Shown piece by piece: positions 24,635 through 64,000 of a DNA stretch of 64,000 nucleotides (position 1 is the stretch's first letter; the number at the start of each line of letters is the position of its first letter). Source of the stretch: a virus; the IMG/VR virus record IMGVR_UViG_3300031485_000046; one strand, 5' to 3'. The notes below the pieces were generated by a model, which saw nothing but the letters and a program-made list of their open reading frames with translations, did no database searches and was not told the origin of the DNA. The position numbers and the translations under genes were made by a program.

Positions 24635-24661
24635 TCACAAACATAAGGAGGAGTGCTGAAT

Positions 24662-26977: not shown

Positions 26978-27578
26978 AAACAATATCGCGGTTATAGGAC
27001 ACGGTCCTAGCACTCGTGGAAGGAAACTAGGCAGTTTCATTAACCTTTGTGATACGGTCATTCGCATGATCGAATGTGATTGGCAGGATGCAGAAGATTA
27101 CGGTAGTAAATATACGATCGGTGTATATGCTACGGGAGGATCTGACGATTTTACAAAGGTGATTGAACGAAAGCCTTCTCTTTGCTGGTGGGTGTACGTT
27201 GCGGCTGGAACCCGTCCTTCTACGGCGATGAATGATGATACAGTAGATGCTCCAGGTGTTGCGGGTCGTCCGATACGGTGGTTACGAAGAACCGTATGGG
27301 ATTGGATCGGTGATAATAAAAAGTTCTCTAGAGGTACTGCTGCCGCGATTGCGTCTATGGCGATCCTAAAACCCACTACAGTTCATTTAGTTGGGTTTGA
27401 TGATGTTGCAAGGGGTGGAATGCTGAAAGGAGCATATCATCCTCCTGAGTTGCAACAGTACCTCAAAGAACAAGGAAAGACACTTGCCAGAAGTGAAACA
27501 GACCATGATTGGAATAATGAAGGCACCGTACTCCAACGTGCCGCAGACTATTACGGAGTTGAGGTGAATTTTCTATGA
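26964..27578 (+). CDS. Sialyltransferase-like glycosyltransferase candidate 2 (paralogue)
   Basis: Motifs IAVIGHGPS, RGTAAAIASMAILKPTTVHLVGFDD, HDWNNE; RBS GGAGGCG. Confidence 0.6.
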   Translation: MVLHKNNIAVIGHGPSTRGRKLGSFINLCDTVIRMIECDWQDAEDYGSKYTIGVYATGGSDDFTKVIERKPSLCWWVYVAAGTRPSTAMNDDTVDAPGVAGRPIRWLRRTVWDWIGDNKKFSRGTAAAIASMAILKPTTVHLVGFDDVARGGMLKGAYHPPELQQYLKEQGKTLARSETDHDWNNEGTVLQRAADYYGVEVNFL

Positions 27579-35938: not shown

Positions 35939-36321
35939 TCGGTATTCCGTGGAAGACGAAAGGGCGGGACCGGGACGGGATTGACTGCGTCGGTCTAGCC
36001 CTTCTCGCGCAAAAGGAGCTGTACGGGCGGGAGTATGACTTCCCATTTGACTACGACCCGGAGACGGGGGATGAGCGCGTTTTGCTCGACTGGCTGGAAG
36101 ACATAGCTGATGAAGTGGACATACCGCAGAATGGAGACCTGGTGATTTATCGGATGCCGGGAATTGACGGGATTGTAAAACATCACATCGGTACGGTCGT
36201 TGGCGAGGCATTGTTGCACATTTATCCGGGGAAGAGTTCTCGGAAGGTGAAAATCAGGATGAAACGGATCTACAAAATCTACCGGGCGAAGGAGGTGGAG
36301 ACATGCCGGGAGCGGCAATAG
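35935..36321 (+). CDS. Tail assembly protein K-like (NlpC/P60 peptidase fold)
   Basis: GIDCVGLALL (Cys) and HHIG (His) motifs; start at internal ATG 35935. Confidence 0.7.
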   Translation: MIGIPWKTKGRDRDGIDCVGLALLAQKELYGREYDFPFDYDPETGDERVLLDWLEDIADEVDIPQNGDLVIYRMPGIDGIVKHHIGTVVGEALLHIYPGKSSRKVKIRMKRIYKIYRAKEVETCRERQ

Positions 36322-39300
36322 GGGCGCTGTTAGGATTTGCCTTGTCAGGAACTGGGCTTGGGATAGGACTTGCAGGATTCCTTGGCGTTTCAGCCGGTAC
36401 CCTCTGGATGGTTGGGGCCTCCCTCGGTTCGTTGTTCGACGGACCGGATATCGACCTTGGAGGTTCGACGCCTAATTACACATTCGGACAGCTGTCGAAT
36501 ACGAAGAGCCAAATGCTCCCCATCCCCATCGTATACGGGCGGTGCAGGGTCGGCGGGAATGTGTTCATGCAGACGTTTTACGACGATACCTTGCAGAAAA
36601 TGGATATGCTGGTCGGTGTTTCCGAAGGGCCAATCCAGTCCATAAAATCCATTTACGCCAGCGACACGGAACTGACGGATGTAAACGGTGATATTACCCA
36701 CGAATTGGAAGAGGTGACGCTGAACGTCCACCTCGGTGAACCAGGCCAGGTTGCTGACAGCCGAGACCCCAGCGGGAGCACATATGCGAATGTGGCTTAT
36801 GTGGGGCTGACGCTGAAGGCGCAGGACGGGCTATCAGGCAACCCTACCATATCGTCCATAGTGGAAGGGCGGAAGATATGGACGCCTGCTGGTACGATGT
36901 TTTCAAGGAACCCAGCGTGGATCGTCTATGACTTCCTGACCAATACCCGCTACGGCGTCGGCATTCCAACAGACCTGATCGACCTCGACTCATTCATGGC
37001 GTCCGCCGACTATTGTGACGCTCTGGTTGAGGGTGAACCTCGTTTCACACTGGATTATATCATCGACACTCAGCGACCGGCGGTGGACCATCTGCAATCC
37101 ATGCTGGCTTGTTTTAGAGGGTATTTCCTCGCCCGGGACAAGATCGAATTGCACGTGGAGCAGGCCGGGAGTGTGTACAAGGCCCTTGGGCCGGATAATT
37201 TCGTGAAGGACAGCTTCACCTGGTGGCAGAAGAGCGGCGACGATTCACCGAACAGAATCACCCTGGAGTGGATCGACCCGGACAACCATTACGAGCAGTC
37301 CTCGGCTGTGTTTGAGTATCAGGAGGATATGCAGGCTCGTGGTGTTTTTGAAAAATCATTCTCCGTGCTCGGAGTAACCCGCTCGTCCCAGGTAGGTCGG
37401 TTGGGTAATTACCTGATGGAAACAGCAAAGCGGGTACAGAATTTCTGCTCGTTCCAGGTGGGACTCCAAGATGCCGACATCGAGGCAGGGGAAATCATAT
37501 CCCTGACATATCCCGATTTTACGGGGTGGGATTCGAAACCCTTCCGGGTTGTGGCGGTGCAGGACCACGGTGATTCGGGTTTAGTTACAATCACCTGTGC
37601 GGAATATGATGCGACGGTATACGGTGATGATGCGCTGCCTGTGCAGACACCCATAGTAGACCCGACGCCCGTTACCTATGACGATGTGTACTCCCTCGCT
37701 CTTGAGGATATGGGGCATATCGCCGATGACGGGACATGGTTCCCGGTAATTCGTGCTACGTGGCAGAACCCGTCCGACTACACGCCCGCTGCACTTAACA
37801 TCCGCTGGCGATATAGCGGCGATACGGTATGGAACCTGCATCTGAACACGTCCCGGCTGACCACGCAGACCAACATTACCGGGCTGACTACCGGAGAGGA
37901 TCTGGAAGTTTGGGTTAATTGCGTTAAGCCAAATAATGGCAGGGAGACAACCGGGGCGACGGCAACGCTGTCCGTAGGACGGGATGTTACCCCTCCGGCG
38001 GCCCCAACTTCCCTTACTGCAACGGGATGGTTTGGAAGCATTAATCTGGAATGGGTGAATCCTGCTGACAGGGACCTTAGTCATATCGAGGTATGGGAAA
38101 ATGCCATTGATAACAGGGCAACCGCAGTAAAAATTGCCGAGACAAAAGGGACATCATACCAGCGGTATGTAGGGTCGTTCATTACTCGTTACTACTGGGT
38201 GCGGGCGGTTGATTTCTCAGGCAACGTGGGCGCATGGAACGCTACGGCAGGCACGGCTGGCAACTCTGACCAGAAGAACCATCAGGATTTTGTAGATTTG
38301 GTGCTACAGGAAAATCCGTATCTCGCAGAAGTACAGACAGACCTCAACTCAGCGATAGTTTTAGGCGACACAAACATTAAGACAATTGACCTGCCTGGCT
38401 ATGAGCAGAGGATAGCCAACCGCATTGATGAGGTCAACGATGACATAATGACGCAGGTCAACACGTATGCTGACGGAACTATCGATGCGATGCTTGACGC
38501 TTCCGAAGCAATAAGTGCAGTAAGAGATGCGGGGATTATTACCGATCCTGTTACGGGATTGACAAGCATTTTCGCCCTTGATGCATACAAGACAGCAAAT
38601 GACGCAAGAGTATCAAACGTTGAGATTGACCTTGATGCAGTCGAATCCACTCTTACATCTAAGGTCACTCTGGCACAGGTGGACGAGCGGATCGCAGGGG
38701 CTGTCTTCGGCGATGCAGGGGAATTGCTCCTGTCCGGCGTGGATGCACGGGTGTCGCTGGTAGAGGAGACCCTTGACGGTGTTGAGGCCGAACTTCTCGA
38801 AAAGGCAACATACGTGGAGGTGAACGAACTCGGCGGGCGAATCGGCACAGCAGAGTCAAGGTTAGACGGTCATGATGCGGAGATTGCCATGCTTGCCACG
38901 TCACAGGAACTTGACGAGGTAGAGAGCCGTGTGACAACGGCAGAGCTTAATATCGATGCCCTTGAAGGATCAATTGTCAATAAGGTTGCCAGCACGGTAA
39001 CGATTACACAAGACCAAGAGGAGCTAATAGCACAGGGCCTGGTTGATGCGATGCTAAACGACCGTGAGGCACAGACCGATGCTAAGGCAAAAACGCAGAG
39101 TGCATTAGCAATAGCGGAGTCTGAACTGTACGCCCATGTCAATGATGAGATGGAAGCAGAGGCGGGGCAGAGATTGTTGTTGGCGGCGAAAGTTGACAAT
39201 AATCAAGCGACTATCCAGAGTGAGTCTGTCGCACGAGCAAATGCTGATTCCGCCATAGCCTCTAATGTATCAACATTGTCAACCACCGTAGGGAACAACA

Positions 39301-39773
39301 CATCAGCGATACAGACAATTGACAGTTCAGTAGACGGGATTCAATCAAAACACGCCGTTAAAATCGATACAAACGGATATGTCACAGGCTATGAACTTAT
39401 CGGCACAGGCGCATCAAGCTCCATGGTGTTCCACGTTGATAATTTCCTAGTCGGCAAGCCGGGTACAACCAACAAATATCCGTTTGTAATCGGCACGGTA
39501 GACGGTGTATCGCGGGTTTCTATGGACTCGGCGTTTATACAGGATGCGGCAATCGAGAATGTGAAGATTGCAAATGCAACAATAACAAGGTTAAAAATTG
39601 AAGGACACACTCTGACTGAGGTCGCATCGTATTACGTTGCAGCAGCGAAGGATATGTTAGAGGACGCAACGTGGACTTACTACACGGATATCGACCAAAT
39701 AACAATTACAACAGAAGCGGGTTATCCAGCACCGATAACGTGGACGGCAGTGCTCAATACAGGAGCAGGGTGA
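36303..39773 (+). CDS. Host specificity/tip attachment protein J-like, with glycine-rich hydrophobic N-terminal segment
   Basis: NPAWIVYDFLTNTRYGVGIP region resembles lambda gpJ NNMAWCLWDMLTHPRYGMG (recalled); 1156 codons; RBS AAGGAGGTGGAG. Confidence 0.85.
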   Translation: MPGAAIGALLGFALSGTGLGIGLAGFLGVSAGTLWMVGASLGSLFDGPDIDLGGSTPNYTFGQLSNTKSQMLPIPIVYGRCRVGGNVFMQTFYDDTLQKMDMLVGVSEGPIQSIKSIYASDTELTDVNGDITHELEEVTLNVHLGEPGQVADSRDPSGSTYANVAYVGLTLKAQDGLSGNPTISSIVEGRKIWTPAGTMFSRNPAWIVYDFLTNTRYGVGIPTDLIDLDSFMASADYCDALVEGEPRFTLDYIIDTQRPAVDHLQSMLACFRGYFLARDKIELHVEQAGSVYKALGPDNFVKDSFTWWQKSGDDSPNRITLEWIDPDNHYEQSSAVFEYQEDMQARGVFEKSFSVLGVTRSSQVGRLGNYLMETAKRVQNFCSFQVGLQDADIEAGEIISLTYPDFTGWDSKPFRVVAVQDHGDSGLVTITCAEYDATVYGDDALPVQTPIVDPTPVTYDDVYSLALEDMGHIADDGTWFPVIRATWQNPSDYTPAALNIRWRYSGDTVWNLHLNTSRLTTQTNITGLTTGEDLEVWVNCVKPNNGRETTGATATLSVGRDVTPPAAPTSLTATGWFGSINLEWVNPADRDLSHIEVWENAIDNRATAVKIAETKGTSYQRYVGSFITRYYWVRAVDFSGNVGAWNATAGTAGNSDQKNHQDFVDLVLQENPYLAEVQTDLNSAIVLGDTNIKTIDLPGYEQRIANRIDEVNDDIMTQVNTYADGTIDAMLDASEAISAVRDAGIITDPVTGLTSIFALDAYKTANDARVSNVEIDLDAVESTLTSKVTLAQVDERIAGAVFGDAGELLLSGVDARVSLVEETLDGVEAELLEKATYVEVNELGGRIGTAESRLDGHDAEIAMLATSQELDEVESRVTTAELNIDALEGSIVNKVASTVTITQDQEELIAQGLVDAMLNDREAQTDAKAKTQSALAIAESELYAHVNDEMEAEAGQRLLLAAKVDNNQATIQSESVARANADSAIASNVSTLSTTVGNNTSAIQTIDSSVDGIQSKHAVKIDTNGYVTGYELIGTGASSSMVFHVDNFLVGKPGTTNKYPFVIGTVDGVSRVSMDSAFIQDAAIENVKIANATITRLKIEGHTLTEVASYYVAAAKDMLEDATWTYYTDIDQITITTEAGYPAPITWTAVLNTGAG

Positions 39774-50221: not shown

Positions 50222-50590
50222 TTATTTACCTTTGTTTTTCTGCAAAAGCTGAAAGAATACTTTTGCATCCATAATTACGATAGGATCTTTTCGACTTTTT
50301 TTCGCAAACAGCAACCATTCTGTTCCTGGAATGGTATTGGTTTGCGCTTGCTCTATCCAAGATGGGATAGACCAATTTTCCTGTGCTTTACACTCAACAG
50401 AGTATGGAAATTCTTTCAGCACTTTTGCTTCCATGCGAACATCTACGCCATTCTGCCCCATACCTCTAGATTCGATAGGGCAATCGTGGCCCCATTCATA
50501 CCCAGTTAGATTCGATATTTGTTCACAAACCCATTTCTGTAGCCTGCGACCTTTATCCTTAGCAGATGCAACAGATATCCGTTTTTTCAT
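50222..50590 (-). CDS. Putative PD-(D/E)xK nuclease (Holliday junction resolvase-like)
   Basis: GVDV...VECK arrangement; placed between recombinase and SbcCD. Confidence 0.5.
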   Translation of the reverse strand: MKKRISVASAKDKGRRLQKWVCEQISNLTGYEWGHDCPIESRGMGQNGVDVRMEAKVLKEFPYSVECKAQENWSIPSWIEQAQTNTIPGTEWLLFAKKSRKDPIVIMDAKVFFQLLQKNKGK

Positions 50591-51651
50591 ACCAATACCC
50601 TGCGTTTCCTATTGGAATCGAATTGTGATTCAACTTCTTCCCATAAATCAATTACAGCATCTTCCAATTTCTTTTCAAGCCCGTCTTCTTCAATCATCCG
50701 AATAGATTCTTCTAATGATTTGCCTAGTTTCGTATCTCCAAGCGCATAAACAGTATTACCGCTCATCTTCTTCAGGTATTGCAGATTCTCTCGAATATTA
50801 TCAATACCATAATCAAAGATTATAGTTAAAGGAGCAGAACGATACGGCTTCCATACAGAATTCTTGTATACTTCCACTTCTGTAGTTACGCCAATTACTC
50901 GTTCCACTTCCTTTTTGTTGATAGTTTTTACAACCTTTATCTTTTTAGGACTACTGAATTTCAGTCGAGTGGATGCATAAAATCCAATTGCAAATCCACC
51001 TGCGGCAGAAGTTTTTTCAGCATAAGGAGAAGAATCTCCTGAACTCCTTACCTGATTAGAACAGACCACAAGAAACTTCTTTTCCGTAATGACACGGCAG
51101 GTTTTTCGTAGCTGTTCCGAAAACTCCTTTGCCCTTCTCATTCCCATTTTGTCGCCTTCTTTTCCCTCTAATTCAAGGTTGGTAGAAAGAGCGGCTAGAG
51201 AATCCACAAATACTCCGTGCAAATTTCCTTCAGGTTCTGGTGCCCATTTACGAATAGGTTCAAACACTTCAGGTACAGTATCAGGGTGGTCTATCTCCAT
51301 TTCCTCTACATCAAGATCGAACATCGTAGCAAATTGCCTATTCAACCTTGCTTCGGGATCACGAAAGAAAATAGAACCACCCTGCCTTTGTATTGCACCT
51401 GCTATCTGACATAACACAACTGTCTTACCACTGCCTGATGGGCCAAATGCTTCTACGAGCACTCCACCCGGCAACCCACCACCTCTTACCCTTCCACCTG
51501 ATATAGCAAGGTCAAGCAACGTAGAACCCGTAGATACTTTGTGCGTAAAATCACCATCATACTCCTTTTTCTTTGCAGGTGGTTCACTCATTCTTTGCTT
51601 TATCTGGGTAGTTAATTTACTTGGCGTCAGCTTTTTCTTTCTTACCACCAT
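50587..51651 (-). CDS. RecA/UvsX-family recombinase
   Basis: Walker A GPSGSGKT preceded by STGSTLLDLAISGG; RBS AGGAGG. Confidence 0.8.
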   Translation of the reverse strand: MVVRKKKLTPSKLTTQIKQRMSEPPAKKKEYDGDFTHKVSTGSTLLDLAISGGRVRGGGLPGGVLVEAFGPSGSGKTVVLCQIAGAIQRQGGSIFFRDPEARLNRQFATMFDLDVEEMEIDHPDTVPEVFEPIRKWAPEPEGNLHGVFVDSLAALSTNLELEGKEGDKMGMRRAKEFSEQLRKTCRVITEKKFLVVCSNQVRSSGDSSPYAEKTSAAGGFAIGFYASTRLKFSSPKKIKVVKTINKKEVERVIGVTTEVEVYKNSVWKPYRSAPLTIIFDYGIDNIRENLQYLKKMSGNTVYALGDTKLGKSLEESIRMIEEDGLEKKLEDAVIDLWEEVESQFDSNRKRRVLV

Positions 51652-52027
51652 TCTCTATCTCCTCCATGCGTTTGATGATAGCTTCAATCTGGTCTACTGT
51701 AAGTTTCTTTTTATTCAGTAGACCACTGGCAGTAATCTTATACCGATCCATTGGTATATTATCAGCCTTAAGGAGTAAGAGCCGTTTTGCAATATCATTC
51801 ACCATTGTAGGCGTTGAAGGAGCTTCCTTGCTTAGTTCCTTCTCCACTAAATCACATATAACATGTGATCTGGACAGACCTTTGTACACCGTATATAGGC
51901 TAAACTTGTCGGCAAGGGCAGGGGGAAGATACCCCCCTGCCATCTTGTTCCGATCAAGAAGAGCCTTAGGCTTTTTTTCTACAGGAGCAATCACTTCAGC
52001 CTTTTTCTTCTTAATCGTCTTCGCCAT
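51617..52027 (-). CDS. Hypothetical protein
   Basis: RBS AAGGAGG; 136 codons. Confidence 0.6.
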   Translation of the reverse strand: MAKTIKKKKAEVIAPVEKKPKALLDRNKMAGGYLPPALADKFSLYTVYKGLSRSHVICDLVEKELSKEAPSTPTMVNDIAKRLLLLKADNIPMDRYKITASGLLNKKKLTVDQIEAIIKRMEEIENGGKKEKADAK

Positions 52028-52029
52028 AA

Positions 52030-53304
52030 TTAATCCTCCTTAGCATCCATACAATCGTCCCATTTCGCACAATCATCACATTCATCATATTCTTCACAAT
52101 CTTTTCCGAATACATGACCGTGCGGACACTTGTTCTTTCCAGCTTTCTTATTTACCTTTTCTTCTTTCTTTCCCTTTTTAGCAGGTTCTTCTTTCAGTTT
52201 CTTTCTACCAGTACCATCACAGGGATTGCATACGCCCCCTCTAGAATTCTTACCAGTACCCTTGCAAGCCACACATTTTTCCTTTTCCGGAATATCTTCC
52301 TCTTCTTCCTCTTCTTCTACTTCATCATCATCTTCATCATCGTCCGTATCCTCTTCATCCTCCTCTTCTTCATCTTCGTCATCCGTATCTTCATCCTCAT
52401 CTTCGTCAGAGATGTCGTCCTCGTCCTCGTCATCCTCGTCAGAAGAATCATCAGCATCGTCTTCATCCTCTTCGTCAGGATCAGCCTCTTTCTTTTTCTT
52501 GGATTTCATCATACTACGGACAGAAGTTCCATCTTCTTCTTCGTCATCCTCAGTTTCATACTCAAAGAATTTAGCTTCCAGCTCATTATACGTAAGCACC
52601 TGAAGAATCTCATCCAGATTAGGAACATCTTTCAGATCCTTTTCCTTATATGGCTTTTCACGTTCTTCAAAATCAATTCTGGAGGTAGCGGCGTACTTAT
52701 TCTTACCAAACTGTTCCTCGCTGAAACGAATCTTGAGAGTAAGCCCTTCATCAGGATCAGGGAATACAGCATTCGTATCATCTTCTTCAAGTTCCTCATT
52801 CAGCTTATCCTGAAAAAGATACTGCGAAATATCCCAAATATGAGGTTTCTTTTCGTGATCCTTTGAATTCAGAGGCACCACTACGTACAAGTTCCGAAGA
52901 GAAGGCTTGAGTGCCTTCAGTTCATCGTCTTCCGCATCTCCATCTTTCACTCGCTTAGCTCGATGTTCGCAGATAGGACATTTCTTACCGAAAGTTGTGA
53001 GGCAGACAAAGGTTTCCTTATTTGCCCCTATTCCGCGATGTACTTTATACGGCTTCTTATACCACTGCTCTCCAACAGTAGCAATACCAAGATCCACATT
53101 CTTATCCATATGCTTTGGGTCTGTAACAGTATATGGAAGAATGTCGAGTGATACTCTAGAACCCGGCTCTTCTTTGAATACTCGAATATTTTTAGGCAGA
53201 TTCAGATATCCGTATTTAGAACCTTGTGCTTTCTGCTGTTTCACATTACCAGCAACTGCCGCCCTGAATTTGCTGTTACTGCCCTTTTTTCCAAGTTTAG
53301 CCAT
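52030..53304 (-). CDS. Putative ssDNA-binding protein with long acidic D/E tract and Cys-rich C-terminus
   Basis: Position in replication module; zinc-ligand-like CPICEH; function inferred. Confidence 0.55.
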   Translation of the reverse strand: MAKLGKKGSNSKFRAAVAGNVKQQKAQGSKYGYLNLPKNIRVFKEEPGSRVSLDILPYTVTDPKHMDKNVDLGIATVGEQWYKKPYKVHRGIGANKETFVCLTTFGKKCPICEHRAKRVKDGDAEDDELKALKPSLRNLYVVVPLNSKDHEKKPHIWDISQYLFQDKLNEELEEDDTNAVFPDPDEGLTLKIRFSEEQFGKNKYAATSRIDFEEREKPYKEKDLKDVPNLDEILQVLTYNELEAKFFEYETEDDEEEDGTSVRSMMKSKKKKEADPDEEDEDDADDSSDEDDEDEDDISDEDEDEDTDDEDEEEEDEEDTDDDEDDDEVEEEEEEEDIPEKEKCVACKGTGKNSRGGVCNPCDGTGRKKLKEEPAKKGKKEEKVNKKAGKNKCPHGHVFGKDCEEYDECDDCAKWDDCMDAKED

Positions 53305-53623: not shown

Positions 53624-54118
53624 CTATGATTTCCTCGCTTTCTTTTTCTTCACCATAGAAGCGGCAACGGTTTCATTCACTTTCTCATTTTTCCGCGTCC
53701 TCTCTTCTGAAAGATTTCTAGGAATAGACGGCCCTGCAAAATACTGCATACCATGTAGCTTGATTAACCCATCAAGTGTATCTTTTCTGGAAGCGATCGC
53801 ATCGAATGCTGATTTAGCCATACCGTACCTATACTGTGCTTCGATTACTTCCTCCGCGGCTTTCTTGTAAGAATCTTGAAGGATGATTGTATCTGCTACA
53901 AGATTCTCGGTTATCTTGCCCAAACCAAATGCATCAGGATCTGCTCGTATCTCTTTACTCAACTCAGCCTTAACAGCGTCAAACTGTTCCTTCATATAGT
54001 CAAGTTCCTTCCTAGCTTCACTTACTACATCTCCGTATTTCTTCATCAGGATCGGCTGTTCAAGCAATTCTACATCAAGGGCAGTTTCGTCAATGTTTAC
54101 ATCAAGATTGTACTCCAT
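53624..54118 (-). CDS. Hypothetical protein
   Basis: 164-codon ORF in replication operon. Confidence 0.6.
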   Translation of the reverse strand: MEYNLDVNIDETALDVELLEQPILMKKYGDVVSEARKELDYMKEQFDAVKAELSKEIRADPDAFGLGKITENLVADTIILQDSYKKAAEEVIEAQYRYGMAKSAFDAIASRKDTLDGLIKLHGMQYFAGPSIPRNLSEERTRKNEKVNETVAASMVKKKKARKS

Positions 54119-55510: not shown

Positions 55511-57328
55511 TTATTTGAAATGGTAATCTCCCTTCTCATTCCAAGAACAATCAACAGGACACACTTCTGCTTCTACTTCCAAGGGTACATTTATCCAGCT
55601 CCAGTGCTTAGGTAAATCTTCACAAGTAATCCTATGAACAGTAGACGCAACCATATCTAATTCGTCAGGATGCACATCCAACACCATTGCGTCATGTATC
55701 TGTCCGATCAATCTGGATTTCCAGTTCTGTTCTCTGGATATCTTGTCAACCTGAATGAACGACCATAACAGACAATGAAATGCACTTCCCTGAATAGGAA
55801 TATTTATGCATTCATTCCTACGCATGATACCAGAACATCTGAATCCTGTGTACATGCTCACATACCCGTTTTTTTGATACCCTTCCCACCACTTGTCTTT
55901 CCAACGATTATACACTTTGAATCGCCTATTCCAAAAATCATCTTCAATTTTCTTGATATGGTCCGTAAACTTATCGAAGGAATCTAGCTTGTTTGCAATC
56001 AAGTGGTCGGAAATATGACCTCCGTCATGCTCAATGCCTTCACCTTTCTTCCATTTGCCTTTAGATAATCCGCACCATTTACAAGCAATATTTTCGGCGC
56101 AGTTTACATAATAGTCACCATAGAACTGCGGAAATACAAATCCGTTCTTTGCCGCTTGCCTCATCATTTTATGCGATGGTATACTCTTGTCTAACTTATC
56201 AAGTACAAATATCTGACAAGCCATATCACCGTGCATATCCGATGAAGGATCTTCAATGTACTTTCTCATAACAGGGTCATGATGGTAACACTCGCTGATT
56301 CTTACTTCCACTCCTGAATAGTCTATTTCAAGTAGCTGGTGACCTGGCTTAGGAAATATCGCTTTGCGAGTAATCTCCATAGCCTCTTTATCTCGCTTGG
56401 GAATATTTTGGAAGTTTATCCGCTCCGATGAATTATGTACGCATATTTGGTTCACGATAAAATTATGATATTTTTCCACTTCAATATCGTACACATCTAC
56501 CGGCTCATCAAGGTACTCTATTGTGTGGTCTGTATGATTAGACAATACCTTATTAGAAAGACGTGTATCTGATAACGCCCTCGCTTGCACGTATGTTCCA
56601 TCTATTAGACGGATTTTGTGCTCAGGTGTCACATCTAAGTATCCTTTCCCACCTCCACCGTTTATAGAGTAATGGATTCGCACAACTTTCTTATGTCCTG
56701 TTTTGCCAGCCCATATAACTTTTTGAATAGAAGGGCGGAGTTTATCGTCAAAACAATACACATAATCACCCTTCTTTACATTTTCAATAGGGGTCCCTTC
56801 TGGTTGTGCTTCAAAATCTTTCATTACCAATACTTTAGATCCTTTAGCTACACAAGAGCGAAATGTCTTTACTGTATGCAAATTAAAGAAAGGATGCAAG
56901 TATCCGCCTACTTGTTCTCTTATGAAAGCATCCAGATACGTATCTCGCACCTTTTTCAATTTGCGCATTTCCAAAATCCACTTTATCTCAGGAATATCAA
57001 TCTGGGAAAGTGCTTCATCGTCTGTTGCACCCTTGCCAGATGGTGTCAACTTTGCAGGGGTGATTTTCCTAACATTGTACAAAAGGTGTGCTAACTGCCA
57101 ATTAGAATCAGGGTTAGCCTTAGCACCATACACCTTCGTCCAATGCATATAGAATTTAGTATCCCTGAGTTTTCTATCCAATCGTGCTATTTTTTTGTCA
57201 AGGTACTCTTTTTTCTTTAAGCAGTAATCAACATCAATCCGCATTCCTTCTTGTTCTGCCCTCGCAAAAGCAAGGATGCCATCTTGCAATAGCTGATATG
57301 CTTCAGGAAGATTAGGTGTCAGTTGCAT
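55511..57328 (-). CDS. DNA polymerase family A, polymerase subunit (intein-containing)
   Basis: NFQNIP, motif A DYSGVEVRI, motif B RQAAKNGFVFPQFYG, motif C QIHDAMV; start at ATG 57326-57328 with AAGGAGGG RBS. Confidence 0.9.
   Translation of the reverse strand: MQLTPNLPEAYQLLQDGILAFARAEQEGMRIDVDYCLKKKEYLDKKIARLDRKLRDTKFYMHWTKVYGAKANPDSNWQLAHLLYNVRKITPAKLTPSGKGATDDEALSQIDIPEIKWILEMRKLKKVRDTYLDAFIREQVGGYLHPFFNLHTVKTFRSCVAKGSKVLVMKDFEAQPEGTPIENVKKGDYVYCFDDKLRPSIQKVIWAGKTGHKKVVRIHYSINGGGGKGYLDVTPEHKIRLIDGTYVQARALSDTRLSNKVLSNHTDHTIEYLDEPVDVYDIEVEKYHNFIVNQICVHNSSERINFQNIPKRDKEAMEITRKAIFPKPGHQLLEIDYSGVEVRISECYHHDPVMRKYIEDPSSDMHGDMACQIFVLDKLDKSIPSHKMMRQAAKNGFVFPQFYGDYYVNCAENIACKWCGLSKGKWKKGEGIEHDGGHISDHLIANKLDSFDKFTDHIKKIEDDFWNRRFKVYNRWKDKWWEGYQKNGYVSMYTGFRCSGIMRRNECINIPIQGSAFHCLLWSFIQVDKISREQNWKSRLIGQIHDAMVLDVHPDELDMVASTVHRITCEDLPKHWSWINVPLEVEAEVCPVDCSWNEKGDYHFK
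56432..56854 (-). mobile_element. Mini-intein (141 aa) inserted in polymerase
   Basis: Begins Cys (CVAKGSKV), TPEH block B, ends YHNFIVNQICVHN followed by Ser; flanking exteins reconstitute HTVKTFRS-SERINFQNIP. Confidence 0.8.
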
Positions 57329-58590
57329 CCTATGTACCCTCCTTGCTGAATCCATCGCATTTGTTTAGATGCTAACCGGTAAGTGAACAAACTATCCATA
57401 CCACAGTATATCAATAGTTTATTCCAAATATCAGATCCTACAGGAACATCAAGCAATTTGTTCATGGAATTGCTATCTTTATCATCCGCCCCTTTAAGAT
57501 ATGGAGCGACCTCATCATCATACCCTGCTACACCAAAATTGATATAGGTTTGTATCTTCAATCCTGTGATGTCTGGTCTGTTATCAAGAATGTGTGTAGC
57601 CAACATAGTATCCCATATCCAGTTTTTTACTTCATACCCCAGAATATTTTGTGTCCATGTGTGTTCAAACTTCAGATTTTGGGCAATCTTTCCTATCTTG
57701 TCTGATTGCAAAATTTCCTTAAGCAGTCTATTTCCTTTCTTACTTTTAGGCATCCCAAAAACTATTGCATCTTCAGGATTACTACACATGGACATGCAGA
57801 TGATTTTGTGCTTGCTTGTATCATGCGGTTTAAGGCCCGTCGTTTCATAATCAATAGCAATAGAAAACGGAAACTTTCTAGAAAGAAACTCTTCAAAAAT
57901 TCCTACTAGCTCACTTTCTGATTTTACTATCTTGATAGCCGTCATTTCATCTGGATATGTTTGCATAGACATGTCCACTGTATTTAATGCCCTGTCAAGG
58001 TCCTGTTTCCATACTGTTCGATATTCCTGTGCATCTTGTTTTTCTACAAACTCTGGATGAAATATCGGGCAGATCCACGTATTGTATTTCCTATCTGGAA
58101 TAGTAAATCCTCTCCATTTATTCATTCCACCTAAATTCTTTGTCCAGATAGAACCTATCACGGAGTTTAATGCTAGTTCACCTACAAGAATTATCACTTT
58201 AGGTTTATACTGCTCAATAGTAGATAGCACTCTTCGTCGGCAACATTGAACTTCTTTTGTCCACGGATTGGTGGTTTCCTTGGACCCTGAAGCATAGCAA
58301 GACAAAGCAAAGAGATTCAGACAGTCTTTGAACAAATCAACGCCTCTACGTTCAAATTCTCGCCTAAGCGTTGTTCCAAATCTGTCTTGCCACGGTTTGC
58401 CTACTCGATCATCTCTACTGCTTGGCATATCACCAATGACCATTATTTTCTTTTCAAATTCCCCGAATGGTGCCATTCTAGGAGACGAAATATCTTTATA
58501 CAACCCACAAGAAGCGCAAGAGAAAGCCTTATTACCACTAGGCCTAGTTTTAGATTTAGTTTCTTCTACTGAAAAGAATCCACTAGCCAT
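57319..58590 (-). CDS. DNA polymerase A accessory subunit: UDG-like domain plus 3'-5' exonuclease domain
   Basis: N-terminal CASCG and IMVIGDMPS (family-4 UDG-like, variant motif); Exo I IDYETTGL; separate ORF overlapping pol subunit by 10 nt. Confidence 0.85.
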   Translation of the reverse strand: MASGFFSVEETKSKTRPSGNKAFSCASCGLYKDISSPRMAPFGEFEKKIMVIGDMPSSRDDRVGKPWQDRFGTTLRREFERRGVDLFKDCLNLFALSCYASGSKETTNPWTKEVQCCRRRVLSTIEQYKPKVIILVGELALNSVIGSIWTKNLGGMNKWRGFTIPDRKYNTWICPIFHPEFVEKQDAQEYRTVWKQDLDRALNTVDMSMQTYPDEMTAIKIVKSESELVGIFEEFLSRKFPFSIAIDYETTGLKPHDTSKHKIICMSMCSNPEDAIVFGMPKSKKGNRLLKEILQSDKIGKIAQNLKFEHTWTQNILGYEVKNWIWDTMLATHILDNRPDITGLKIQTYINFGVAGYDDEVAPYLKGADDKDSNSMNKLLDVPVGSDIWNKLLIYCGMDSLFTYRLASKQMRWIQQGGYIGCN

Positions 58591-60204: not shown

Positions 60205-61176
60205 TTATATAGTGAATAATCCTTTGCTTACTTGGAATTGAACTCCTTTGCGATATTCATTCACCCATTGCTCTAATCCTAGAATGTATCGGATGTTAAT
60301 TTCACAACGAACATCAAAGGATTGAATCTCATCATACGTGTACCCATCATCTTCAATCTGTTTTAATTTCCGAGGTGTAAGTACACCCATTCCTTTACTA
60401 GACCGTTGCTTCGATACACAAAACACCATCGGTTGCTTTGAATAATCAGGATTCTTGAATCCACCGATAGGGTACATGATAGAACCCCACGCGGCAACTA
60501 TTCTCCAAGTAGCGGCATCAGCACTAGTAAAAGGTAGCGTTTTCAGCACGGGCAACATCCATACTGCAAATCCGTGTGTTTTAACACGGATTCTATTTAT
60601 ATGGATGTAAGAAAATACTGACCGCATCCAAGATAGCCTAGATTGGACACTCATATCGTTTGCAGGTGACACTCCGATATAGTCAGTAAGTTCTACCATT
60701 TTGTGCAACCATTCCCAATCTTCTCCTTGATGGAAGACATGAATAGGAGTGATCCCTGCATCTTTCATCCTAAGAAGATTTTCGTATCCTTTCGCGGCCG
60801 CTGTATTGATAATTTTCTTATTCTCCGCAGTCTTCACTCGATTGAGATGTGTAGAAGTACCAGGAGAACCGGGGATCACATCGAGGTTGACTACCCTCAA
60901 CTTTTTATTATCATCCGCCGCTATTTGGATTGCCTCTTTAGCATAACTAATGTAGGCGTCAATGGGAATAGAATGACCTTTAGCCCATGCTGAAAACGCA
61001 CCTGAATCAAGAATGATGTTTCCATTTAATGTAGGAACTTGTCTGCACCATTCTTTAAGCTGTTTTGGATAGAGATAAGAAACCAGTCTGTTCGTAATCC
61101 GCCTGTTGAGTTCCTTACCGCGTTCTTCCTTAGGATTAAAAACAGGACCGGCAAAATACAAACGGACTGGCTTCAT
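60205..61176 (-). CDS. dpdA: DpdA-like tRNA-guanine transglycosylase-family protein (7-deazaguanine DNA transglycosylase candidate)
   Basis: ILDSGAF motif resembling TGT catalytic DSGGFQ; no zinc subdomain; adjacent to queF and queC. Confidence 0.65.
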   Translation of the reverse strand: MKPVRLYFAGPVFNPKEERGKELNRRITNRLVSYLYPKQLKEWCRQVPTLNGNIILDSGAFSAWAKGHSIPIDAYISYAKEAIQIAADDNKKLRVVNLDVIPGSPGTSTHLNRVKTAENKKIINTAAAKGYENLLRMKDAGITPIHVFHQGEDWEWLHKMVELTDYIGVSPANDMSVQSRLSWMRSVFSYIHINRIRVKTHGFAVWMLPVLKTLPFTSADAATWRIVAAWGSIMYPIGGFKNPDYSKQPMVFCVSKQRSSKGMGVLTPRKLKQIEDDGYTYDEIQSFDVRCEINIRYILGLEQWVNEYRKGVQFQVSKGLFTI

Positions 61177-61178
61177 TT

Positions 61179-61604
61179 TCAGTTACCTGTTCCGTCGTAC
61201 TCGGCAATCACCGAAATATCAGTACCACCTCTGCGATTGAAATTAGCCTCTATTCGCATGTGGTACGGTTTGCAAGCGTTCGACAGATCGTCCAGTATTT
61301 TGTTTGTAACAGACTCCATAAACGCTCCGTGCTGACGATATGCTCCCATGTATATCTTGAGTGCTTTCGTTTCCAAACAAAAATCCTTTGGAAAGTATCG
61401 AATCGTGATAGTGCCAAAATCAGGATTTCCTGTACGCGGACACAGACTGGAAAATTCCGTGAATACGAACTCCGTGGCGTATTGCCTGTCTTTGCACGGA
61501 TTATCAAATACTTCAAGAAGAGCTGGATCTGGATTATTGTACCTGTCGTACGGTACGACTGTTCCGAGGTTTTTCAGATGGTCTACATTCACTTTTCTAT
61601 CCAT
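61179..61604 (-). CDS. queF: NADPH-dependent 7-cyano-7-deazaguanine reductase QueF
   Basis: EFSSLCPRTGNPDFGT (catalytic Cys motif) and ETKALKIYM (QueF motif); start ATG 61602-61604 with GAGGAGGG RBS. Confidence 0.85.
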   Translation of the reverse strand: MDRKVNVDHLKNLGTVVPYDRYNNPDPALLEVFDNPCKDRQYATEFVFTEFSSLCPRTGNPDFGTITIRYFPKDFCLETKALKIYMGAYRQHGAFMESVTNKILDDLSNACKPYHMRIEANFNRRGGTDISVIAEYDGTGN

Positions 61605-62292
61605 TGTTTGCACCCTCCTCATAGAATACTGGGTCGATCAGATTGTTTTCTGCAAAGGCCTCAAGGCGTTCATAACAACTTCCACATTTTCCGCAAGGAT
61701 TCGGTTGGTTCTTGTAACAAGTTCTTGTAAGGTGATATGGTGCGTTATTTGCAATACCATACTGCACTATCTGACTTTTAGACATGTGAAGGAACGGTGC
61801 AAGTATATTCACATTTCTATCCGTACCAAGATAAATCGCTGTATCCATTGCTTTATGAAATTCTGGGCGACAATCAGGGTAAATAGCATGATCGCCTCTA
61901 TGAATTCCTATAGCAATATTCTCTATACCTTTTGACCACGCCATACCGGCTAGGATCGACAGGAACACTAGATTACGAGCAGGTACCACCGTCTGACTCA
62001 TATTCGATGATTCATAGTGTCCTTCCGGTATTTCTCCACCGCTTAGAAGCAGACTAGATTCCATTCCAGTAAATGCTCCGGACAGGTCTACAACTTCGTA
62101 GGTCAATTCGCAAGGAACGGCAGACACATAATATTTCAATACTGCGTCTGCCGCTCTTCGTTCGTACACATTGTGTTTGCTACCGTACTGGAAATTTACA
62201 CAATGGATTTTCTTGAATTCCTTGCGAATAAGCCAAGCAAGAACTGTTGCAGAATCCAGTCCTCCTGAGAAAGAAAGGACTGCGGAACGCAT
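61597..62292 (-). CDS. queC: 7-cyano-7-deazaguanine synthase QueC
   Basis: PP-loop SFSGGLDS; C-terminal CGKCGSC; start at ATG 62290-62292 (longer ORF-track N-terminus rejected). Confidence 0.85.
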   Translation of the reverse strand: MRSAVLSFSGGLDSATVLAWLIRKEFKKIHCVNFQYGSKHNVYERRAADAVLKYYVSAVPCELTYEVVDLSGAFTGMESSLLLSGGEIPEGHYESSNMSQTVVPARNLVFLSILAGMAWSKGIENIAIGIHRGDHAIYPDCRPEFHKAMDTAIYLGTDRNVNILAPFLHMSKSQIVQYGIANNAPYHLTRTCYKNQPNPCGKCGSCYERLEAFAENNLIDPVFYEEGANNG

Positions 62293-62293
62293 C

Positions 62294-63211
62294 TTACTTC
62301 TTCTTTCCAGCCTTCTTGCCAGCTTTCGCTTCCTTAGCCGGAGCGGTCTTTGCAGGCGCTTCCTTCTTTGCAGAAGCTTTCTTTTCCGCCATTTCTGCCT
62401 TCGCCTCCTTCTTTTTAGAAGATTTACTACCACCATCGTGCTTCACGATTTCCTTAGTGATCTTACTGCCTTTCTCACACTTGATATCCGTGAACTTCAC
62501 GATGTTGCCATCTTCCTTGTCAATGTAGATAAGCACAGGGAAGCGGCAATATTTAGGATTAGTCCCATCAGAAAGAATTGTAGAAAGAGCGGCGATGGTT
62601 GCGTCGGGGAACTGCTTTGCCGCAAGTTCGATCAGATCCTTTTTGCTGTACCGACCCTCATTGATAAGGTCGATAAAAAATTCGATCCTTTTGGCAGTCT
62701 TATTGCCACCAAATATCTCATCCTTCGTTTTCGTGGGCTTATCAGATTTTGCAGGCTTTTCTGCCTTCGGAGCCTTAGCAGGCTTTTCTTCCTTGGCTTT
62801 ACTCTTGCCCTTCTTAGGAATAGGAAGTACCTCTATTTCGTCTTCCTCTTCTTCCTCTACATCGTCACCGTCTTCGACATCTTCGTCCTCATCGCTTTCG
62901 TCCCCATCTTCCCCTTCCTCGTTGACCCCTTCATCGTCTTCGTCTTCATCGTCAGCTTCTTCGTCCCCTTCGACTTCTTCCTCATCCGCATCCTCCTCGT
63001 CGGCATCCTCTTCCTCTTCATCAGCATACTTAGCCTGAATCTGTGCAAGAATATCCATCGTTTCCTCGGAAAGTCCATCCTCTTCGCTTACAGCTTCAGA
63101 AGCCTCAAGCAGTTCAGCTTCCAGTTCGTCAGTACCGAGCTTTACATCAATGGGAGGCTCGATAATAGTATTAATCTCCTTAGCCGCCTTAACCAGTTCA
63201 CTTTTCTTCAT
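62294..63211 (-). CDS. Hypothetical protein with long acidic (D/E) and lysine-rich low-complexity tracts
   Basis: RBS TAGGAGGG; 305 codons. Confidence 0.6.
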   Translation of the reverse strand: MKKSELVKAAKEINTIIEPPIDVKLGTDELEAELLEASEAVSEEDGLSEETMDILAQIQAKYADEEEEDADEEDADEEEVEGDEEADDEDEDDEGVNEEGEDGDESDEDEDVEDGDDVEEEEEDEIEVLPIPKKGKSKAKEEKPAKAPKAEKPAKSDKPTKTKDEIFGGNKTAKRIEFFIDLINEGRYSKKDLIELAAKQFPDATIAALSTILSDGTNPKYCRFPVLIYIDKEDGNIVKFTDIKCEKGSKITKEIVKHDGGSKSSKKKEAKAEMAEKKASAKKEAPAKTAPAKEAKAGKKAGKKK

Positions 63212-63321
63212 AATCTTTGTTCCCTCCTAAATAGATTTTTGTGGATCGCTTGTTTTTTTGCTCTCTGACATATAATAACATATAATTCACGTCCAGTCAG
63301 ATTGTATATAAAACAGATTTA

Positions 63322-64000
63322 TTAAAAATAACTCCCGATAAAGGGTCGGCCTCGTTGCAAGCATTGAAGCACTTTCACTTGCCTTGTCCTGTCAAATTCT
63401 GATTCCCTTACAACTAATTCTCCTAAGCGCATAATACCGATTTTCTTTTCCTCGTCTGTTTGATTCAAACTATATGTAGCCGTTGTGTGGGCATACTTTC
63501 GTTTGTCTTCCGAGAAGTCTGACAAAGATAAGGTTTCCTTGTCATAACTTGACGCTGCCGCTTGTGTAGCCGTAATCAATAAACAATGTTTCTCCTGACT
63601 CAACTTTCGCATCCTTTGCCAAATCTTGTTTATCTGCCCCCTCCCGTCTAACCTGCTACAGTCATAATCTGGAGCAAGAATGTCCGCATAATCTATCAGA
63701 ACTACATCAGGTACGAACCCATCCTGTCGCTCCCACAACGTAAGCAGATTGCTAATTTCCTGCATGGTAAGAGTTTCATTTGGATATGTGGCTAACTTAA
63801 ATTTCTTATTATGTTTCTTCTGCCATGCTTTCATAATCTTGTATGCGTCCTTCCATGTAAGTGTTTTGACAGAAGGACTGTACTCTAGCCAAACAGCACC
63901 TCGTATTCTATCACAATTCCTACATGGTTTATACTCTGGATAATCTTGTTTTGCTTCCATCAGCATATCAAAGGTAATCTTCTTTTGTTCCATATCCGGA
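63322..64000 (-). CDS. Partial CDS (C-terminal region; N-terminus beyond window end): RecA-fold DnaB-like helicase
   Basis: VVLIDYADIL (Walker B-like) and CLLITATQ blocks spaced as in DnaB C-terminal domain; ORF open to window edge. Confidence 0.55.
   Translation of the reverse strand, partial: PDMEQKKITFDMLMEAKQDYPEYKPCRNCDRIRGAVWLEYSPSVKTLTWKDAYKIMKAWQKKHNKKFKLATYPNETLTMQEISNLLTLWERQDGFVPDVVLIDYADILAPDYDCSRLDGRGQINKIWQRMRKLSQEKHCLLITATQAAASSYDKETLSLSDFSEDKRKYAHTTATYSLNQTDEEKKIGIMRLGELVVRESEFDRTRQVKVLQCLQRGRPFIGSYF

What the first reader, a model, noticed from the sequence alone, without database searches (positions are those of the whole stretch)
52030..53304. Very long acidic low-complexity tracts in two proteins
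The SSB-like protein (52030-53304) contains roughly 90 consecutive residues that are almost entirely Asp/Glu, and the protein at 62294-63211 has a similar 60-residue acidic run followed by lysine-rich repeats. Such tracts can act as DNA mimics (anti-restriction), protein-interaction tails, or chaperone-like regions, and they generate spurious antisense ORFs.
Basis: seen in the sequence. Interest (0 to 1): 0.4.

Follow-up and report, generated by a model that had tools for sequence, protein, structure and literature searches.

The report
Acidic disordered tails in two phage replication proteins
Two genuine runs of about 60 acidic residues sit in flexible linkers of a phage single-stranded-DNA-binding protein and a neighbouring uncharacterised DNA-binding-like protein; the first is an unusually long version of the acidic tail such proteins normally carry, and the two runs lengthen together in related phages.

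Summary
The protein at 52030-53304 (-) has a 61-residue tract with 53 Asp/Glu (aa 277-337), not about 90. The protein at 62294-63211 (-) has 62 residues with 48 Asp/Glu, followed by Lys-rich segments.

Neither tract is an artefact. Independent assemblies reproduce both, differing only by small in-frame indels, and the codons are mixed.

Protein A is a T4 gp32-type SSB. Its core is a Zn-containing OB fold (Foldseek to RB69 and T4 gp32), and it lies between UvsY-like and UvsX/RecA genes. The tract is predicted disordered. It links the core to a DnaJ-type CxxCxGxG pair and a conserved, very acidic Cys-rich C-terminal module. Across the family the linker is nearly always net negative, but tract length ranges from 2 to 68 residues.

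I read it as an enlarged gp32-style acidic tail that gates DNA binding and tethers a partner-binding tip. Anti-restriction DNA mimicry is not supported.

Protein B belongs to an uncharacterised, metagenome-only family that sits next to the phage 7-deazaguanine (Que/DpdA) genes.

On contigs carrying both genes, the tracts are long in both (3 lineages) or short in both (8), never mixed.

In two relatives the SSB's C-terminal modules lie in the -1 frame after an A9 run.

The parts
52030..53304 (-). Gene for protein A, a gp32-type single-stranded DNA-binding protein (424 aa plus stop)
   Evidence: ORF. PHROG 1192 SSB, E 3.4e-9. Foldseek top hits are RB69 and T4 gp32. AGGAGG lies upstream of the ATG.
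53215..53304 (-). Basic N-terminal segment, aa 1-30 (net +8). Possible counterpart of the gp32 N-terminal cooperativity segment.
   Evidence: Charge. Predicted helix around aa 12-28 (model numbering is protein numbering minus 1). The function is inferred.
52558..53214 (-). Zn-containing OB-fold core, aa 31-249, with invariant H89, C101, C109, C112
   Evidence: pLDDT above 90. Foldseek 2a1k E 1.5e-6, TM 0.65 normalised to the target. Invariant columns (that numbering is 1 lower than the protein numbering used here). hhalign 92% to cyanophage gp32 over the Cys motif.
52477..52557 (-). Short acidic patch ETEDDEEED (aa 250-258) plus neutral/basic break (aa 259-276)
52294..52476 (-). Main polyacidic tract of protein A, aa 277-337 (61 residues, 53 D/E), predicted disordered
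   Evidence: pLDDT below 50. Length polymorphism among near-identical homologues.
52207..52275 (-). Pair of CxxCxGxG motifs (C344-G351 and C359-G366), a DnaJ-type zinc hairpin
   Evidence: Motifs. pLDDT about 94. Pfam DnaJ_CXXCXGXG sub-threshold in 9 of 75 family members. phrog_3931, E 9e-4. Present in only part of the family.
52129..52206 (-). Lys-rich linker, aa 367-392
   Evidence: 12 K/R in aa 366-391. pLDDT below 50.
52033..52128 (-). Conserved acidic Cys-rich C-terminal module, aa 393-424 (CPHGHVFGKDCEEYDECDDCAKWDDCMDAKED). C393, C409, C412 and C418 are nearly invariant. Net charge -8.
   Evidence: Conservation. Present in 82 of 88 parsed homologues, mean net charge -8.7. pLDDT about 90.
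62294..63211 (-). Gene for protein B (305 aa plus stop), an uncharacterised family placed beside QueC
   Evidence: ORF. 56 close homologues and 169 remote ones. No Pfam match above the gathering cut-off and no PHROG or NCBIfam match.
63023..63211 (-). Conserved N-terminal three-helix domain of B, aa 1-63
   Evidence: pLDDT 81-89. The domain recurs in remote homologues.
62837..63022 (-). Polyacidic tract of protein B, aa 64-125 (62 residues, 48 D/E)
   Evidence: pLDDT below 50 for most of the tract.
62717..62836 (-). Lys-rich PAK-type segment, aa 126-165
62426..62716 (-). Conserved C-terminal globular domain of B, aa 166-262. Three helices then strands, possibly a winged helix.
   Evidence: 169 remote homologues. 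Secondary structure (low confidence). Sub-threshold Cac1_C winged-helix hits in 14 of 41 members. No PDB hit.
62297..62425 (-). Lys/Ala-rich basic tail of B, aa 263-305 (net +12)
52114..52866 (+). Spurious antisense ORFs across tract A (also 52130-52603)
   Evidence: Phe/Leu/Ile-rich and Ser-rich translations of the complement of GAN codons.
62595..63038 (+). Spurious antisense ORF across tract B (also 62171-63268)

Best explanation
Both tracts are real, protein-level, intrinsically disordered polyanionic linkers. They are not repeats of DNA and not artefacts.

Protein A is the phage's gp32-type SSB. It has a basic N-terminal segment, a Zn-containing OB core and an acidic C-terminal region. 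Here that acidic region is enlarged to about 175 residues with net charge -55. It carries two small Cys-rich modules, presumed to bind zinc.

Proposed mechanism, inferred by analogy with T4 gp32, T7 gp2.5 and E. coli SSB:
1. The polyacid competes with ssDNA for the basic binding cleft of the core, acting as a salt-sensitive gate.
2. It also acts as a long flexible tether. The tether presents the conserved acidic, aromatic-containing Cys-rich tip to partner proteins at the fork and in recombination.

Protein B has an N-terminal helical domain, the acidic tract, and then a basic, probably winged-helix, DNA-binding end. Its tract probably plays the same intramolecular electrostatic role.

The two tracts expand together in related lineages. 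They therefore probably answer a shared requirement rather than drifting independently.
For: Shown here:
- gp32-like fold: 2a1k E 1.5e-6, 8gme E 2.1e-5.
- The invariant H-x11-C-x7-C-x2-C motif aligns with the gp32 Cys motif.
- Conserved synteny of clamp loader, UvsY-like, SSB, RecA/UvsX, resolvase and SbcCD.
- The tract is predicted disordered, while both flanking Cys modules are confidently folded.
- The family linker is net negative in 97% of 88 homologues, median -11. The window protein is the extreme at -43.
- The C-terminal module is present in 82 of 88 homologues, with mean charge -8.7.
- Several members end in DDIPF, DDVPF or DDIPY, like the E. coli SSB tip.
- Annotated gp32/SSB proteins of cultured phages also end in acidic tails.
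- Co-variation: tract lengths for A|B are 61|62, 54|103 and 58|~67 in three divergent lineages. Both are at most 18 in eight others. There are no discordant cases, and at least two expansions are independent.

From the literature: the gp32 acidic C-domain binds at or near the ssDNA-binding surface of the core and blocks ssDNA interaction (PMC5892887).
Against: - No biochemistry is available. Autoinhibition and partner binding are inferred by analogy.
- The window protein itself does not reach any Pfam threshold, and a PDB profile search found no gp32 hit by sequence.
- Tract length varies from 2 to 68 residues among orthologues, so a long tract is not required for basic SSB function.
- Some lineages lack the C-terminal module altogether.
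- The co-variation rests on 11 lineages without phylogenetic correction. Fisher p is 0.006, but Spearman rho is 0.55 with p 0.08.
- The model of B is poor (mean pLDDT 56), and its winged-helix assignment is sub-threshold.
Confidence: 0.6

Rival explanations
1. The long tracts are near-neutral by-products. Replication slippage on GA-rich codons expands stretches in linkers that tolerate any length and need only be net acidic. The exact length does nothing.
For: - Tract length ranges from 2 to 68 residues among orthologues with conserved cores.
- Near-identical strains differ by in-frame indels in poly-E and poly-D runs.
- Tandem Repeats Finder sees weak period-3, -9 and -12 structure.
- Some relatives reach at least 25 consecutive Glu (L048).
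Against: - Codons are mixed, and Ser, Thr, Gly and Val interruptions are conserved among strains.
- Only two proteins in the window carry such tracts. The same two carry them in a divergent relative.
- The two tracts are long together or short together in 11 of 11 lineages. Independent drift does not predict that.
Confidence: 0.2
2. The tracts are DNA-mimicking decoys. They would titrate host DNA-binding defence or nucleoid proteins, such as restriction enzymes or sensors of phage SSB. This is an anti-defence function added onto replication proteins.
For: - Extreme negative charge density.
- The phage invests in anti-restriction elsewhere, through a 7-deazaguanine DNA-modification cluster next to protein B.
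- Parallel expansion in two proteins could reflect a common external target.
Against: - Known DNA mimics such as Ocr and ArdA are folded proteins with a fixed charge geometry (PMC3439906, PMC2731889). These tracts are predicted disordered.
- No similarity to any anti-restriction family was found in Pfam, PHROGs or NCBIfam.
- A long/long lineage and a short/short lineage occur in the same metagenome (3300028602).
Confidence: 0.08
3. The acidic blocks and the adjacent Lys-rich blocks make both proteins block polyampholytes. These would co-assemble by complex coacervation into a replication or recombination compartment on phage DNA.
For: - Both proteins have an acidic block followed by Lys-rich blocks.
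- D/E and K/R counts in linkers rise together across both families, rho 0.73 and 0.78.
- The two tracts co-expand.
Against: - The evidence is purely compositional.
- The D/E to K/R correlation is largely a length effect.
- No direct evidence of interaction or condensation exists.
Confidence: 0.1
4. The tracts are assembly artefacts, that is, collapsed or expanded repeats.
For: Some related contigs terminate inside the tract (L015, L033, L048).
Against: - The same tracts recur in many independent assemblies from different sources, with only 1-6 residue differences.
- Repeat identity at the DNA level is low.
- The reading frame is always preserved.
Confidence: 0.02

Closest known systems
Bacteriophage T4/RB69 gp32 (Pfam PF08804)
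   Same: - Monomer-type OB core with a His/Cys3 zinc subdomain.
- Basic N-terminus and an acidic, disordered C-terminal domain.
- Encoded alongside UvsX and UvsY recombination proteins.
   Different: - Only 14-16% identity in the structural alignments to gp32.
- The window protein gives no Pfam hit.
- From my own knowledge the gp32 C-domain is about 50 residues. Here the C-terminal region is about 175 residues with net charge -55.
- It carries a CxxCxGxG pair and a Cys4-type acidic terminal module that gp32 lacks.
E. coli SSB disordered linker plus acidic tip (DDDIPF), and the T7 gp2.5 acidic C-terminal tail
   Same: - A disordered linker ends in an acidic, aromatic-containing tip.
- That tip both modulates DNA binding and recruits partners.
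- Some family members literally end in DDIPF, DDVPF or DDIPY.
   Different: - The core fold and oligomeric type differ.
- The window protein ends in ...CMDAKED, not IPF.
- Its tip is a Cys-rich, probably metal-stabilised module rather than a free peptide.
DnaJ cysteine-rich domain (PF00684)
   Same: Two CxxCxGxG motifs spaced as a hairpin, confidently modelled.
   Different: - Only one pair is present, whereas DnaJ has four motifs and two Zn centres.
- Pfam scores are sub-threshold, best E 0.011.
- There is no J domain.
- The pair is absent from most of the family.
Acidic-tail autoinhibited DNA binders (HMGB1 acidic tail; the CAF-1 Cac1 acidic ED region plus C-terminal winged helix), for protein B
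   Same: - An acidic disordered block sits in the same chain as a basic DNA-binding end.
- Weak Cac1_C winged-helix profile hits in 14 of 41 family members.
   Different: - All hits are below the gathering threshold.
- No structural match was found.
- The comparison is eukaryotic and rests on architecture only, recalled from my own knowledge.
dnaX tau/gamma recoding (for the side observation in relatives)
   Same: An A-rich slippery or slippage site separates a core product from a C-terminal extension that carries interaction modules. Runs of 9 A are documented transcriptional slippage sites (PMC5009743).
   Different: - Here the long form would need the shift.
- This arrangement is not present in the window gene.
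- Expression of two isoforms is untested.

Membership tests
gp32-type SSB (PF08804) | OB-fold core structurally superposable on gp32 | tested here: met
   Foldseek against the PDB: RB69 gp32 2a1k E 1.5e-6, probability 1.0, TM 0.65 normalised to the target; T4 gp32 8gme E 2.1e-5. The model has pLDDT above 90 over the core.
gp32-type SSB (PF08804) | Zinc subdomain with one His and three Cys ligands | tested here: met
   Invariant H89, C101, C109 and C112 (H-x11-C-x7-C-x2-C) in 75 homologues (that numbering is 1 lower). hhalign aligns VCLTTFGKKCPICEH with NCLTTNGDKCPVCAH of cyanophage Syn1 gp32 at 92% probability. Metal binding itself was not tested.
gp32-type SSB (PF08804) | Sequence match to the Pfam model above its cut-off | tested here: not met
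   The window protein has no Pfam hit at E <= 0.01. 18 of 75 family members hit PF08804 at E <= 1, best 6.7e-7. One homologue, P0107, carries a precomputed PF08804 hit. PHROG 1192 'SSB' matches at E 3.4e-9.
gp32-type SSB (PF08804) | Acidic C-terminal domain and basic N-terminal segment | tested here: met
   N-terminal 30 aa have net charge +8. The C-terminal 175 aa have net charge -55. The linker is net negative in 97% of the family.
gp32-type SSB (PF08804) | Cooperative ssDNA binding | not testable with these tools
   Needs purified protein.
gp32-type SSB (PF08804) | Encoded with UvsX/UvsY-type recombination and replisome genes | tested here: met
   UvsY-like gene at 53624-54118 and RecA/UvsX at 50587-51651. 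The same order is found in L001, L003 and L117.
Bacterial SSB (PF00436) with C-terminal DDDIPF tip | Homotetrameric SSB OB domain and a terminal D-D-D-I-P-F peptide | tested here: not met
   No PF00436 hit. The window protein ends in AKED. Only some relatives end in DDIPF, DDVPF or DDIPY.
DNA-mimic anti-restriction proteins (Ocr, ArdA) | Folded domain displaying acidic side chains in B-DNA-like geometry, or family sequence similarity | tested here: not met
   The tract has pLDDT below 50 with no secondary structure. No Pfam, PHROG or NCBIfam match to such families.
DnaJ-type zinc finger (PF00684) | CxxCxGxG motifs forming a zinc centre | tested here: inconclusive
   Two exact motifs at C344 and C359, modelled with pLDDT about 94. 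Pfam is sub-threshold, 9 of 75 members, best E 0.011.
Winged-helix DNA-binding domain (for protein B) | Three helices followed by a beta hairpin wing, or a profile match | tested here: inconclusive
   Predicted helices at about aa 172-185, 190-200 and 203-215, followed by strands, but pLDDT is only 52-71 over aa 171-221. Cac1_C hits 14 of 41 members, best E 1.4e-4, below the cut-off. No PDB hit by sequence or fold.

The most novel reading that the evidence does not exclude
The polyacidic tracts of the SSB and of the Que-cluster protein B form a functionally coupled pair. They expand together, at least twice independently. The cause would be that they act on a common target or co-assemble with the Lys-rich blocks into a replication compartment. 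In addition, this SSB family's C-terminal Cys-rich modules are a regulated add-on. In some lineages they would be produced only after a -1 shift at an A9 run, giving short and long SSB isoforms in the manner of dnaX gamma and tau.
Probability: 0.2. Interest if true: 0.7.

Novelty: new variant of a known kind. Interest (0 to 1): 0.45.

Why it matters
Acidic tails are how SSBs regulate their own DNA binding and recruit other replication and repair proteins.

This family is large and metagenome-only: more than 600 protein clusters and more than 300 IMG/VR loci. It shows that design taken to an extreme, capped with Cys-rich, probably metal-binding modules that have not been described for gp32-type proteins.

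Tract length varies naturally from 2 to 68 residues on a conserved core. That gives a ready-made series for testing how tail length and charge tune SSB behaviour.

The correlated expansion with a second, uncharacterised protein beside the 7-deazaguanine DNA-modification genes points to an interaction or shared pressure that could be tested directly.

The A9 frame-split relatives may add an example of recoding in a phage replication gene.

Tried and rejected
- Megablast of 14 kb and tblastn of protein A against 50,697 GenBank phages gave no match at default stringency. At E <= 1, only weak hits to annotated gp32/SSB genes appeared.
- A PDB profile search with the SSB family alignment gave no gp32 hit. 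Its only hit, an antibody knob domain, is chance.
- A homologue search with the C-terminal 87 residues of A returned only two fragments, P0177 and P0178. These are truncated or error-laden pieces of the same gene, not a stand-alone family.
- Protein B gave no PHROG or NCBIfam match, only a sub-threshold Pfam Nop14 hit on its acidic region, and no match in cultured phages. Its AlphaFold model was poor and its Foldseek search empty. The PDB profile search of its domain gave only chance hits.
- I checked whether SSB lineages that lack the C-terminal module hide it in another frame. It is truly absent in L008, L009 and L010.
- An IMG/VR pattern scan for the L001 A9 site with variable A count found nothing.
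- I considered a habitat explanation for long tracts and set it aside. A long/long lineage and a short/short lineage occur in the same metagenome.
Full report
**1. Context**

The window is a nearly complete siphovirus-like phage genome of about 64 kb.
- Structural genes: large terminase at 12119-13714, portal at 21096-22556, head protein at 24653-25783, tape measure at 32434-35067 and central tail fibre at 36303-39773.
- The minus strand carries a long replication, recombination and nucleotide-metabolism block.
- In transcription order that block reads: DnaB-like helicase (63322-63993), protein B, QueC, QueF, DpdA/TGT-like, sliding clamp, UDG/exonuclease, PolA with an intein, clamp loader, UvsY-like, protein A, a small gene, RecA/UvsX, a resolvase-like nuclease, SbcCD-like genes, dUTPase, dNMP kinase and thymidylate synthase.
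- No GenBank phage is similar at the DNA level.

**2. The observation**

- Protein A (52030-53304, minus strand, 424 aa) has its best D/E segment at aa 277-337. That is 61 residues with 53 D/E.
That gives 88 residues with 63 D/E.
- Protein B (62294-63211, minus strand, 305 aa) has 62 residues with 48 D/E at aa 64-125, followed by Lys-rich segments.
- No other six-frame translation in the window contains such a tract.
- Shuffles of each protein's own residues never approach the observed scores: 37 and 20, against a maximum of 13 in 20,000 shuffles.
- Both genes have AGGAGG 7-9 nt upstream of the ATG.

**3. Not an artefact**

- Codon use in the tracts is mixed.
- Tandem Repeats Finder reports only weak periodicity, 61-74% matches for the arrays that span the tracts.
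- Proteins 96-100% identical over the core come from independent assemblies (Logan, ENA, JGI, IMG/VR). They keep the tract and differ only by in-frame changes in homopolymeric codon runs.
The tracts are stable in outline and slightly polymorphic in length.
- In a few relatives the contig ends inside the tract, so such tracts can break assemblies.

**4. What protein A is**

- A search with aa 1-249 found 605 protein clusters, all from metagenomes or metagenome-assembled genomes (MAGs). An IMG/VR scan found at least 329 viral loci.
- An AlphaFold model built on 75 homologues is confident over aa 30-250.
- Its best PDB matches are the RB69 and T4 gp32 cores. BFVD matches include annotated phage SSBs.
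- Invariant H89, C101, C109 and C112 form a gp32-like zinc motif. A profile comparison aligns this stretch with a cyanophage gp32 at 92% probability.
- Sequence-only methods are weak: no Pfam hit for the window protein, and PF08804 in 18 of 75 relatives.
- Synteny with clamp loader, UvsY-like, RecA/UvsX and SbcCD is conserved in divergent relatives.
- I conclude it is a distant gp32-type SSB.

**5. Anatomy of the tail**

After the core come, in order:
- the acidic patch and the basic break;
- the 61-residue tract (pLDDT below 50);
- a pair of CxxCxGxG motifs (pLDDT about 94);
- a Lys-rich linker (pLDDT below 50);
- a 32-residue module, CPHGHVFGKDCEEYDECDDCAKWDDCMDAKED (pLDDT about 90, net charge -8). 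Four of its Cys, plus Pro, Phe, Gly and Asp, are nearly invariant.

Across 88 parsed homologues:
- linker length is 2-149 residues;
- the linker is net negative in 97%, median -11;
- the window lineage is the extreme at -43;
- the terminal module is present in 82 of 88;
- the CxxCxGxG pair is present in 20 of 88.

Tract length runs from 2 to 68 residues. Several members add DDIPF, DDVPF or DDIPY after the module, the signature of the E. coli SSB tip. Annotated phage gp32/SSB proteins also end in acidic tails.

**6. Mechanism**

- Established work on gp32 holds that its acidic C-domain binds at or near the ssDNA-binding surface of the core and blocks ssDNA interaction. Its removal changes the salt dependence of association (PMC5892887).
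- A net-negative linker and an acidic aromatic tip are conserved here, on a gp32-type core.
- The most economical reading is therefore the same two jobs on a larger scale: an electrostatic gate, and a flexible tether for a partner-binding tip.
- These steps are inferred, not shown.
- The wide natural variation in length says the extreme length is not needed for core function. That keeps a near-neutral slippage explanation alive.

**7. Protein B**

- Close homologues (56) all keep the tract, with small indels.
- A library-wide search with its globular domain found 169 remote relatives.
- The common plan is an N-terminal helical domain, a variable linker, and a C-terminal domain of about 65 residues followed by a basic tail.
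- Tracts of 40 or more residues occur in only 3 of 148 representatives.
- No curated family, solved structure or cultured phage matches. Sub-threshold Cac1_C winged-helix hits and the predicted helix-helix-helix-strand order hint at a winged helix.
- In every informative locus the gene lies among the 7-deazaguanine genes, usually directly upstream of QueC. In the window its stop codon is 1 nt from the QueC start.
- This could be inherited gene order or a functional link. I cannot tell which.

**8. Co-variation**

On contigs that carry both genes, tract lengths for A|B are:

| Lineage | A tract | B tract |
|---|---|---|
| Window | 61 | 62 |
| L117 | 54 | 103 |
| L177/L195 | 58 | about 67 |
| L131 | 5 | 5 |
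| L151 | 10 | 7 |
| L166 | 10 | 4 |
| L103 | 14 | 5 |
| L107 | 9 | 4 |
| L135 | 5 | 2 |
| L139 | 6 | 5 |
| L172 | 3 | 18 (B cut by the contig end) |

- None of the 11 is discordant. Fisher p is 0.006 and Spearman rho is 0.55 with p 0.08, both uncorrected for phylogeny.
- On a neighbour-joining tree of SSB cores, L177 groups with short-tract lineages. The window and L117 are only weak sisters at 58% identity. That implies at least two independent co-expansions.
- In L117 these are again the only two long (54 or more residues) tracts in 21 kb; the only other segment is an 11-residue patch in the same SSB.
- A long/long lineage and a short/short lineage come from the same metagenome.
- The pattern is suggestive but rests on few lineages.

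**9. Frame-split relatives**

- In L001/L002/L117 the SSB ORF stops five codons after CGT AAA AAA AAA. The CxxCxGxG pair and the terminal module continue in the -1 frame from that A9 run. This exact protein was read on 24 contigs.
- L087, a different lineage, has the same layout at CCA AAA AAA AAG AAA TAG.
- Runs of 9 A are documented sites of transcriptional slippage (PMC5009743).
- Other lineages without the module truly lack it.
- The window gene is unsplit.

**10. Verdict**

- The finding is real.
- The first protein is a new variant of a known kind: a gp32-type SSB with a much enlarged acidic tail and added Cys-rich modules.
- The second belongs to an uncharacterised family.
- Anti-restriction mimicry is not supported.
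- The co-expansion and the A9 frame split are the parts worth following up.

Noticed in passing
L001/L002 7045-7073 (same site in L117 near 11045-11073); L087 about 2590-2605: In two divergent relatives the SSB ORF ends a few codons after an A9 run. The CxxCxGxG pair plus the acidic Cys-rich module continue in the -1 frame. This may be programmed frameshifting or transcriptional slippage giving short and long SSB isoforms.
   Followed up: partly
L019, L028, L060, L065, L069, L082; proteins P0078, P0079, P0109: Some members of this gp32-type family end in DDIPF, DDVPF or DDIPY (P0078 and P0079 in DIPF), the motif of the E. coli SSB C-terminal tip. This suggests recruitment of host SSB-interacting proteins.
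   Followed up: partly
window 60205-63211; L004, L005, L091, L093, L195: The protein B family always lies among the phage 7-deazaguanine genes (QueC, QueD, QueE, QueF, FolE, DpdA-like), usually directly upstream of QueC. In the window its stop codon is 1 nt from the QueC ATG at 62292.
   Followed up: partly
window 61597-62436 (-): The mechanical ORF for QueC starts at 62436. That gives an Arg-rich 48-residue extension, which is just the alternative frame of protein B's Lys-rich tail. The likely true start is the ATG at 62292 (MRSAVLSFSGGLDS).
   Followed up: yes
window 55511-57355 (-); L004 2143-4899: The PolA polymerase gene appears to carry an intein: an insertion absent from intein-less relatives of 462-469 aa. 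A relative's polymerase gene has precomputed Intein_splicing hits, and a relative's helicase gene carries an intein with a LAGLIDADG domain.
   Followed up: no
window 51617-52027 (-): A small gene (136 aa) follows the SSB after a 2-nt gap. Its Shine-Dalgarno sequence (AGGAGG) is formed by the SSB's last codons, AAG GAG GAT TAA. By eye the sequence looks ribbon-helix-helix-like. It has no family match.
   Followed up: no
L015, L033, L048 (locus ends): Contigs of some relatives terminate inside the acidic tract, with at least 25 consecutive Glu codons in L048. Such tracts can therefore break short-read assemblies.
   Followed up: no
L195 2941-3759 (-): One relative's gene upstream of QueC keeps the protein B N-terminal domain and a long acidic tract. 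Its C-terminal domain differs, and it has a middle segment that by eye looks HeH/SAP-like. The family is therefore modular.
   Followed up: no
window 27575-28813 (+): A 412-aa ORF inside the structural module matches both methyltransferase and glycosyltransferase PHROGs.
   Followed up: no
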